Source: an uncultured Rickettsiales bacterium (GTDB lineage Bacteria > Pseudomonadota > Alphaproteobacteria > Rickettsiales > CAYLHV01). Taken from it: a stretch of 64,000 bases of DNA. Location: positions 234 to 64,233 of the forward strand of contig CAYLHV010000010.1 in NCBI GenBank assembly GCA_964383745.1, given 5' to 3'. A program made the position numbers and the translations under genes. Every line of letters begins with the position of its first letter. The stretch's first letter is position 1. The notes beneath the pieces are model-generated. The model was not told the DNA's origin. It did not search any database and saw only the letters and a program-made list of their open reading frames with translations. Below, one piece after another: positions 41,832-42,051 of this stretch.

Positions 41832-41958
41832 ATGTTTTTCCGAAGGAAATTTTCTTTTAAATTAAACCATATCATTCAATTTTAAGTTTGTCAATTATTG
41901 CTTACTTCTCTTTAAAGATGATTATTGGGGGGGGATAGATTTTTTGTGTTGACGGAAG

Positions 41959-41998
41959 ATATATATATATATATATATATATATATATATATATATAT
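41959..41998. repeat. (AT)20 dinucleotide microsatellite
   Basis: Twenty uninterrupted AT units, flanked by G8 (41927..41934) and G6 (42011..42016), in the divergent intergenic region. Confidence 0.98.
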
Positions 41999-42051
41999 AA
42001 TGCAATGTATGGGGGGTTTTATTAATAATAAATAATCAGGAGTTTACAATT

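What the first reader, a model, noticed from the sequence alone, without database searches (positions are those of the whole stretch)
41927..42016. (TA)20 flanked by G8 and G6 in a divergent promoter region: candidate phase-variation switch
Three simple-sequence tracts lie within 90 bp between the divergently oriented hypothetical genes 41166..41831 (-) and 42052..42708 (+). The (AT)20 run lies exactly between a -35-like TTGACG (41949..41954) and a consensus TATAAT (41996..42001). That gives a 41-nt spacer, far from the functional 16-18 nt. Repeat-number change would therefore alter promoter geometry. The Haemophilus influenzae hifA/hifB divergent fimbrial promoters are phase-switched by a TA repeat in the same -35/-10 position. 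G8 in such AT-rich DNA is itself an unusual slippage-prone tract. Both flanking genes encode membrane-associated proteins of unknown function, which are plausible targets of on/off switching.
Basis: partly seen in the sequence, partly recalled or inferred. Interest (0 to 1): 0.6.

Follow-up and report, generated by a model that had tools for sequence, protein, structure and literature searches.

The report
TA microsatellite splitting a promoter
A perfect 41-base TA repeat sits between the two halves of a promoter in front of an unknown membrane-protein gene in an uncultured Rickettsiales-like bacterium, which is the layout of a known repeat-length on/off switch, but the repeat is far longer than the "on" length and nothing here shows that it switches.

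Summary
(AT)20.5 lies at 41959-41999, with TTGACG 4 nt upstream, and its last bases form TATAAT. That gives a 41-nt spacer. G8 and G6 flank it. The TA run is extreme, since the next longest dinucleotide run in 64 kb has 4 units. G6 is ordinary and G8 only mildly unusual.

Two results support a promoter-spacer repeat:
- The window's only other extreme repeat, T19 at 59260-59278, also starts exactly 4 nt after a TTGACA and is followed by an extended -10.

The layout therefore matches known TA-spacer switches (H. influenzae hifA/hifB, Mycoplasma mycoides Vmm).

Three results count against a working switch:
- A 17-nt spacer needs (TA)8, which is 12 units shorter.
- The minus-strand gene has its own promoter candidate 65 nt from the tract, so the hif-like two-way control is not met.
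- No population data exist. The only hint is a short-read contig that stops inside G8.

Both flanking genes are lineage-specific orphans.

Verdict: a new, unproven member of a known kind. The canonical promoter is uncoupled at this length. Non-adaptive repeat expansion is a serious rival.

The parts
41166..41831 (-). Orphan gene of 221 aa. It has one strong N-terminal transmembrane helix, a weak sub-threshold MotB_plug match, and a C-terminal beta-alpha-beta-beta region in a low-confidence model.
   Evidence: ORF. Pfam MotB_plug E 0.0065, below cut-off. No homologue among 5.8 billion proteins. Hydropathy. AF2 pLDDT 46.7.
41866..41894 (-). Best sigma-70-type promoter candidate for the minus-strand gene: TTGACA-N17-TATGGT with TG (10 of 12). 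It lies outside the repeat cluster.
   Evidence: Promoter scan. The region as a whole has no more hits than shuffled sequence.
41927..41934 (+). G8 tract, 14 nt upstream of the plus-strand -35 and 33 nt upstream of the minus-strand -35. It lies in no promoter spacer.
   Evidence: The Logan contig L002 ends after its 7th G.
41949..41954 (+). -35-like hexamer TTGACG (5 of 6), preceded by T6 (41940-41945).
41959..41999 (+). Perfect (AT)20.5 microsatellite. It is self-complementary and can form a hairpin or cruciform.
   Evidence: TRF, 100% matches, score 82.. DNA fold -11.5 kcal/mol, z -2.4.
41996..42001 (+). Consensus -10 hexamer TATAAT, formed by the end of the tract plus AT. It is 41 nt from the -35.
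   Evidence: The same run-end TATAAT occurs in 21 of 61 surveyed loci.
42011..42016 (+). G6 tract, about 3-8 nt downstream of the start site expected from the TATAAT. It is ordinary in frequency.
42038..42042 (+). Shine-Dalgarno AGGAG, 9 nt before the ATG.
   Evidence: The paralogue has GGAGG at the same distance.
42052..42708 (+). Gene of 218 aa. It belongs to a very small family with an N-terminal beta/alpha repeat (LRR-like, low confidence), two hydrophobic segments and a conserved NLEGYIQxNMNLTYN motif.
   Evidence: The profile search finds only P0002, P0124 and P0126. AF2 pLDDT 48.7.
59250..59286 (+). Second repeat-split promoter: TTGACA, TTCG, T19 (59260-59278), then TGtTATTCT (an extended -10). 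The spacer is 25 nt, and T11 would give 17. An 83-aa ORF with AGGAG follows at 59379.
   Evidence: Statistics.

Best explanation
The (TA)20 tract is a microsatellite occupying the spacer of a sigma-70-type promoter (TTGACG ... TATAAT) for the plus-strand membrane-protein gene 42052-42708. It has the anatomy of a promoter-spacer contingency locus.

At the assembled length the two hexamers are 41 nt apart. RNA polymerase cannot use them together, so the canonical promoter is uncoupled (OFF or weak). Any remaining expression would have to come from the TATAAT alone with its AT-rich upstream DNA.

Slipped-strand mispairing, or hairpin-mediated deletion within the palindromic tract, changes the length in 2-nt steps. 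Only about (TA)8 restores a 17-nt spacer and full activity.

T19 at 59260-59278 is a second locus of the same design.

Shown here:
- The anatomy of the tract and its flanking hexamers.
- The non-random anchoring of both repeats to -35 hexamers.
- The recurrence of the layout in other bacteria.

Inferred:
- That these hexamers are the promoter.
- That the tract length varies in the population.
- That the variation is used adaptively.
For: - The tract is a perfect (AT)20.5 flanked by TTGACG and TATAAT, with a T-rich segment upstream, AGGAG downstream and an intact ORF.
- Intergenic TTGACA hexamers in this window are commonly followed by a -10-like hexamer at 17-18 nt. Strong -35 promoters are therefore the local norm.
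- The two extreme repeats of the window both start exactly 4 nt after a TTGACR hexamer. The chance that both start within 0-10 nt is 3.7e-4, and at exactly 4 nt it is 3e-6. T19 is followed by TGnTATTCT.
Of these, 44 have TTGACA, 43 have the run starting 0-1 nt after the hexamer, and 21 end in a TATAAT built as it is here.
- About half of the downstream ORFs found in that survey carry signal-peptide or lipoprotein N-termini.
- Literature supports the mechanism. (TA)9-11 between hifA and hifB changes -35/-10 spacing (PMC2651432). Poly-TA tracts of 10-16 units precede Mycoplasma mycoides lipoprotein genes, and only some of those genes are expressed (PMC3053259; PMC2628566).
- The plus-strand gene is real and lineage-specific. 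It has a paralogue at 40% identity and two more distant relatives with the same architecture.
Against: - (TA)20 is 12 units longer than the only ON length. Known switches sit within a few units of ON (9-11 in hif; 10-16 in M. mycoides).
- No read-level or between-sample data exist on tract length. The organism was found in a single sample.
- The transcription start is unmapped, and the promoter scan of the region finds no more hits than shuffled sequence.
- The paralogue's upstream region is not significantly alignable: 52 of 500 shuffles score as well.
- A reduced, AT-rich endosymbiont-like genome could accumulate such tracts without any selection.
- The statistics on -35 anchoring were computed after the pattern had been seen.
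Confidence: 0.45

Rival explanations
1. Non-adaptive promoter decay. In a small-population, AT-rich intracellular bacterium, short TA or T runs in promoter spacers expanded by slippage. The genes are dispensable and lineage-specific, so the inactivating expansions were tolerated and kept growing. The locus is a silenced or decaying promoter, not a reversible switch.
For: - Both repeats are well beyond their ON lengths, by +24 nt and +8 nt.
- Both target genes are orphans or short ORFs without known families.
- The nearest relative lacks these genes next to rph-rdgB-hemW.
- Run lengths in the genome survey decay smoothly from the threshold with a long tail, as expected for drift.
Against: - The plus-strand ORF is intact, with a strong ribosome-binding site and conserved family motifs.
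- Neutral expansion does not explain why both tracts start exactly 4 nt after a -35 hexamer, or why no comparable tract exists elsewhere in 10 kb of intergenic DNA.
Confidence: 0.3
2. Length-insensitive or graded promoter. Transcription depends on the consensus TATAAT alone, with the AT-rich tract acting as an upstream (UP-like) element, or on TTGACG-N17-TATATA inside the tract. Repeat number then tunes expression weakly or not at all, as a rheostat rather than an on/off switch.
For: - The TATAAT is perfect and correctly placed, about 50 nt before the ATG.
- TTGACG-N17-TATATA exists at any tract length of 10 units or more (read directly from the sequence).
- Own knowledge: AT-rich bacteria often tolerate weak -35 elements.
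Against: - TATATA lacks the conserved T at the last position of the -10.
- Intergenic promoters in this window typically pair a TTGACA with a -10 at 17-18 nt, which suggests the -35 matters here.
Confidence: 0.12
3. Structural element. (TA)20 extrudes a cruciform or melts under negative supercoiling generated by the two divergent promoters. It would act as a torsion-sensitive insulator or coupler between them.
For: - The tract is a perfect 40-nt palindrome between divergent genes.
- Own knowledge: (AT)n tracts of this length extrude cruciforms in E. coli at native superhelicity.
Against: - There is no evidence specific to this locus.
- T19, which shares the -35 anchoring, cannot form a cruciform.
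- Most surveyed TA loci are not between divergent genes.
Confidence: 0.05
4. Assembly or sequencing artefact: the tract, its length, or the join across it is not real.
For: - The k=31 assembly breaks at the tract and inside G8.
- The count of 20 rests on one assembly.
Against: - Both flanks are reproduced exactly by an independent assembly that carries at least 30 nt of TA.
- A 41-nt tract is spanned by ordinary short reads.
Confidence: 0.03

Closest known systems
Haemophilus influenzae hifA/hifB fimbrial phase-variation switch (van Ham et al. 1993, as summarised in PMC2651432)
   Same: A TA dinucleotide tract lies in an intergenic region between divergent genes, placed between -35 and -10 hexamers, so that repeat number sets the promoter spacing.
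   Different: - hif uses 9-11 units around the ON length, whereas this tract has 20.
- In hif the tract serves overlapping promoters in both directions. Here only the plus-strand promoter contains it.
- The genes here are unrelated to fimbriae.
Mycoplasma mycoides Vmm and M. capricolum/M. mycoides capri lipoprotein genes with poly-TA promoter tracts (Persson et al. 2002; PMC3053259, PMC2628566)
   Same: - A one-directional promoter-spacer (TA)n lies in front of lineage-specific membrane-protein genes.
- Several such loci occur per genome.
- OFF alleles reach 15-16 units.
- Paralogous genes carry different tract lengths.
   Different: - The targets there are lipoproteins with signal peptides. 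Here the target is a membrane protein without a signal peptide.
- Switching is shown experimentally there and is untested here.
- This tract is longer than any quoted for those loci.
Homopolymer promoter-spacer switches (Mycoplasma hyorhinis vlp poly-A; Neisseria porA/opc poly-G/C; own knowledge)
   Same: The companion T19 tract sits between a perfect TTGACA and an extended -10, as in those systems.
   Different: - T19 is 8 nt longer than the ON length.
- G8 at 41927-41934 is not inside a spacer or an ORF, unlike the G/C tracts of Neisseria.
Upstream-of-promoter repeat rheostats (H. pylori sabA poly-T, N. meningitidis nadA TAAA; own knowledge)
   Same: G8 lies upstream of both -35 hexamers, where length changes could shift the phasing of upstream DNA relative to the promoters.
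   Different: No upstream binding site or UP element is defined here, and the effect is purely conjectural.

Membership tests
Promoter-spacer simple-sequence-repeat phase variation (hif, Vmm, vlp type) | A perfect repeat tract long enough to be hypermutable | tested here: met
   (AT)20.5 at 100% purity. The next longest dinucleotide run in 64 kb has 4 units.
Promoter-spacer simple-sequence-repeat phase variation (hif, Vmm, vlp type) | The tract lies between the -35 and -10 hexamers of the promoter of the adjacent gene | tested here: inconclusive
   The sequence has TTGACG (5 of 6) and TATAAT (6 of 6) on either side, with the gene 50 nt downstream. The transcription start is not mapped.
Promoter-spacer simple-sequence-repeat phase variation (hif, Vmm, vlp type) | Observed repeat numbers include or lie next to one giving a 16-18-nt spacer | tested here: not met
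   The present spacer is 41 nt. A 17-nt spacer needs (TA)8, which is 12 units fewer (arithmetic). Only one allele is available.
Promoter-spacer simple-sequence-repeat phase variation (hif, Vmm, vlp type) | Tract length varies within or between populations and tracks expression | not testable with these tools
   The organism was seen in one sample only. The only hint is a contig end inside G8.
Promoter-spacer simple-sequence-repeat phase variation (hif, Vmm, vlp type) | The controlled gene encodes a surface or otherwise contingency-type function | tested here: inconclusive
   Hydrophobic segments are present. The family is tiny and uncharacterised. The structure models are too poor to use.
hifA/hifB-type bidirectional switch | One tract lies in the spacers of two overlapping divergent promoters | tested here: not met
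   The minus-strand candidate promoter is at 41894..41866, 65 nt from the tract. No -10-like hexamer follows the tract on the minus strand.
G/C homopolymer contingency tracts (Neisseria/Campylobacter type) | A G/C tract of 8 or more lies inside an ORF or a promoter spacer | tested here: not met
   G8 lies 14 nt upstream of one -35 and 33 nt upstream of the other. G6 lies after the -10. The frequency of G runs matches composition.
Replication origin AT-rich unwinding element | A GC-skew sign change and clustered DnaA boxes next to the AT-rich tract | tested here: not met
   Skew is positive across the whole window. No DnaA-box cluster lies in 41832-42051.

The most novel reading that the evidence does not exclude
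An uncultured, deep-branching Rickettsiales-like intracellular bacterium runs a small set of repeat-controlled promoters. TA and T tracts are anchored 4 nt after the -35 hexamer, possibly with a variable G8 nearby. These promoters would stochastically switch lineage-specific membrane or effector-like genes. To my knowledge this would be the first repeat-based set of phase-variable genes described in that order. The same TTGACA-(TA)n-TATAAT design would also be a widespread and largely unrecognised switch across Firmicutes, spirochaetes and Mollicutes.
Probability: 0.3. Interest if true: 0.6.

Novelty: new member of a known kind. Interest (0 to 1): 0.42.

Why it matters
If the tract does vary and gate transcription, an obligate intracellular alphaproteobacterium would be using stochastic on/off switching. 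That lineage is usually thought to vary its surface by recombination or not at all. The unknown LRR-like membrane protein would then become a host-interaction candidate.

The cross-genome survey also suggests that TA-filled promoter spacers in front of surface-protein genes are much more common than the few textbook cases. This can be tested directly with existing population sequencing.

If the tract is fixed, the locus is an example of promoter inactivation by microsatellite growth during genome reduction. That would be of modest interest.

Tried and rejected
- Comparative route. Both flanking proteins are orphans. A HemW-based scan of reference genomes found nothing. An exact left-flank scan of JGI metagenomes found nothing. 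No plasmid matches were found. No second allele of the tract could therefore be obtained.
- Logan look-ups for genes next to T19 failed, as did the look-up for P0124.
- Homology between the upstream regions of the two paralogues is not significant. The idea that the tract grew from the paralogue's (AT)4 remains only a suggestion.
- Structure prediction of both proteins gave pLDDT below 50. No fold search was run, because matches would be meaningless.
- Origin-of-replication unwinding element: rejected, since there is no skew change and no DnaA-box cluster.
- No Rfam family lies in the region.
- The alternative plus-strand promoter TTAATA-N17-TACAAT (42022-42050) is unlikely. Its -10 ends 1 nt before the ATG, so the transcript would lack the ribosome-binding site.
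- G6 as a slippage tract: rejected as ordinary.
- A paper search for the SRA run found nothing, and Persson et al. 2002 is not held in the library.

Full report
**1. Observation**

The sequence is as described.
- G8 lies at 41927-41934.
- A T6 run lies at 41940-41945.
- TTGACG lies at 41949-41954, followed by GAAG.
- A 100% pure (AT)20.5 run lies at 41959-41999 (TRF score 82).
- TATAAT at 41996-42001 is built from the end of the run plus AT.
- G6 lies at 42011-42016.
- AGGAG lies at 42038-42042 and the ATG at 42052.
- The -35 to -10 distance is 41 nt.

The next longest dinucleotide run in the 64-kb window has 4 units, so the TA tract is far outside chance. G is 22.8% of this strand. Runs of G>=6 occur 8 times against 7.2 expected, and G>=8 once against 0.3 expected. 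Their position on either side of the tract is the only odd thing about them.

**2. Context**

The window is chromosomal DNA from an AT-rich (38% G+C) bacterium.
- It carries housekeeping genes (uvrB, nusA, infB, ileS, tyrS, rph-rdgB-hemW) and many ankyrin-repeat genes.
- Its HemW is at most 52% identical to anything else. The named relatives are Candidatus Megaira, Rickettsiaceae, Candidatus Phycorickettsia and Rickettsiales MAGs.
- The nearest relative keeps rph-rdgB-hemW next to type IV secretion genes but lacks the two genes flanking the tract.

Both flanking proteins are orphans among 5.8 billion proteins.

The plus-strand protein:
- It has one paralogue at 40% identity in the same sample.
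- An exhaustive profile search found two more distant relatives with the same layout: an N-terminal beta/alpha repeat, two hydrophobic segments and an NLEGYIQxNMNLTYN motif.
- It is therefore a real gene of unknown function.

The minus-strand protein has a strong N-terminal membrane helix and only a sub-threshold MotB_plug match.

AlphaFold models of both proteins are unreliable, with pLDDT of 49 and 47.

**3. Promoter anatomy on both strands**

On the plus strand the tract fills the space between a 5/6 -35 hexamer and a 6/6 -10 hexamer. A 17-nt spacer would need 12 fewer units, that is (TA)8.

Inside the tract, TTGACG-N17-TATATA exists at any length. It lacks the conserved final T of the -10.

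On the minus strand the best candidate is TTGACA-N17-TATGGT with an upstream TG, at 41894..41866. It lies 65 nt from the tract, and no -10 follows the tract in that direction. The defining hif feature, one tract shared by two overlapping divergent promoters, is therefore not met.

Intergenic TTGACA hexamers in this window are commonly followed by a -10-like hexamer at 17-18 nt. Strong -35 promoters seem to be the local rule, and a 41-nt gap should disable this one.

**4. A second locus of the same design**

The only other extreme repeat in the window is T19 at 59260-59278.
- It also begins exactly 4 nt after a TTGACA: ggaggTTGACAttcg-T19-gtTATTCT.
- The last T of the run plus the following G give the TG of an extended -10.
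- The spacer is 25 nt, and T11 would give 17.
- An 83-aa ORF with AGGAG follows.

Only 15 TTGACR hexamers lie in 10,255 intergenic bases. With that density, the chance that both tracts start within 0-10 nt of one is 3.7e-4. At exactly 4 nt it is 3e-6. This test was made after seeing the pattern, but the margin is large.

**5. The same layout elsewhere**

I set aside long-read MAGs that are full of TA and GT microsatellites and may be contaminated. That left 61 loci.

| Feature among the 61 loci | Count |
|---|---|
| Full TTGACA hexamer | 44 |
| Run starts 0-1 nt after the hexamer | 43 |
| Run ends in a TATAAT formed as here | 21 |

Run lengths were 26-50 nt.

The hosts include Streptococcus, Blautia, Intestinimonas, Treponema, Spiroplasma, a Holosporales MAG and an Anaplasmataceae MAG. 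About half of the downstream ORFs begin with signal-peptide or lipoprotein sequences.

The scan selected only over-long tracts and was truncated, so it shows recurrence, not frequency.

**6. Evidence on variability**

The organism was found in one sample. Its k=31 Logan contigs match the window exactly.
- One contig begins with 30 nt of TA at 41970, which is the expected break at a repeat longer than k.
- The other ends at 41933, after the 7th G of G8, instead of running on to the TA tract.
- The same assembly reads through a G7 and a T9 elsewhere.

A contig end inside a homopolymer is what a G7/G8 mixture in the reads would produce. Homopolymer sequencing error or low coverage next to the TA tract would produce the same. 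It is a hint only. Nothing bears on TA length itself.

**7. Mechanism and rivals**

The most likely reading (0.45) is a promoter-spacer microsatellite of the contingency type, with the canonical promoter now uncoupled. Slippage or hairpin-mediated deletion towards (TA)8 would switch it on.

The main rival (0.30) is non-adaptive expansion that silenced promoters of dispensable lineage-specific genes in a genome under relaxed selection. The great excess over the ON length, and the fact that T19 is also over-long, fit this rival well. The precise -35 anchoring and the intact gene fit it less well.

| Minor rival | Confidence |
|---|---|
| Length-insensitive or graded promoter driven by the TATAAT alone | 0.12 |
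| Cruciform or torsion-sensitive element between divergent promoters | 0.05 |
| Assembly or sequencing artefact | 0.03 |

An origin-of-replication role is excluded by the uniformly positive GC skew and the lack of DnaA boxes.

**8. Comparison with known systems**

The closest known cases:
- The hifA/hifB (TA)9-11 switch (PMC2651432).
- The poly-TA promoter tracts of Mycoplasma mycoides lipoprotein genes. Tracts of 10-16 units coexist there, and only some of the genes are expressed (PMC3053259; PMC2628566).

The present locus works most like the one-directional Mycoplasma type, not like hif.

Phase variation through repeats is documented in at least one obligate intracellular bacterium, Chlamydia trachomatis (PMC4514472). 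My searches found no report of it for Rickettsiales.

**9. Verdict**

This is a new, unproven member of a known kind. Its interest is moderate. It rises if read-level data show length heterogeneity, and falls if the tract is fixed.

Noticed in passing
window 59250-59286 (T19 at 59260-59278), ORF 59379-59630: A second extreme repeat: T19 starts 4 nt after a perfect TTGACA and is followed by TGtTATTCT. It lies upstream of an 83-aa ORF with a strong ribosome-binding site and no family match. The spacer is 25 nt, and T11 would give 17.
   Followed up: partly
window 3053-3181, 9218-9346, 36015-36247 (a complete palindrome), 47488-47616, 59675-59803; degenerate copies near 42735-42760 (-), 59076-59110 and 60040-60075; L003 1-25: A MITE-like palindromic repeat of about 150 bp with the core GCCTTTGGCTCGCAATGAC. 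It has 7 copies in the window against 0 expected. The exact 19-mer core also hits at least 120 JGI metagenome contigs from many environments, so it belongs to a very widespread 'cattgcgag' palindromic repeat class.
   Followed up: partly
L002 end = window 41933; L001 start = window 41970: The k=31 Logan assembly of SRR15237806 stops after the 7th G of G8, although it reads through a G7 (12039-12045) and a T9 elsewhere. This is compatible with G7/G8 heterogeneity in the reads, or with sequencing trouble next to the TA tract.
   Followed up: partly
loci L007-L124 (for example L100 Streptococcus castoreus 6777-6811, L093 S. porcorum, L121 Intestinimonas massiliensis, L039, L066, L086 Holosporales MAG, L010 Spiroplasma): TTGACA followed directly by (TA)13-25, often ending in TATAAT, recurs in many unrelated bacteria. 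About half of the cases lie upstream of signal-peptide, lipoprotein or surface-anchor proteins. This may be a widespread and little-described class of repeat-split promoters.
   Followed up: partly
window 42536-42577: An in-frame 21-bp tandem duplication (2 copies, 90% identical) lies inside the plus-strand gene. It encodes VDTVHKR/VDTARKQ and is absent from the paralogue.
   Followed up: no
window 45586-64000: A cluster of ankyrin-repeat genes shares a conserved non-ankyrin C-terminal region, with motifs like LFLHVI and LS.EDALFAL.F.NYDY. GC skew rises here to 0.4-0.5, much higher than in the first 40 kb.
   Followed up: no
loci from contigs CBDHHR01... (Metamycoplasmataceae MAG) and CAXXBX01... 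(Dehalococcoidia MAG): These reference MAGs carry dozens of long TA, GT and CA microsatellites (40-120 nt) on many contigs. This looks more like eukaryotic contamination than bacterial sequence.
   Followed up: no
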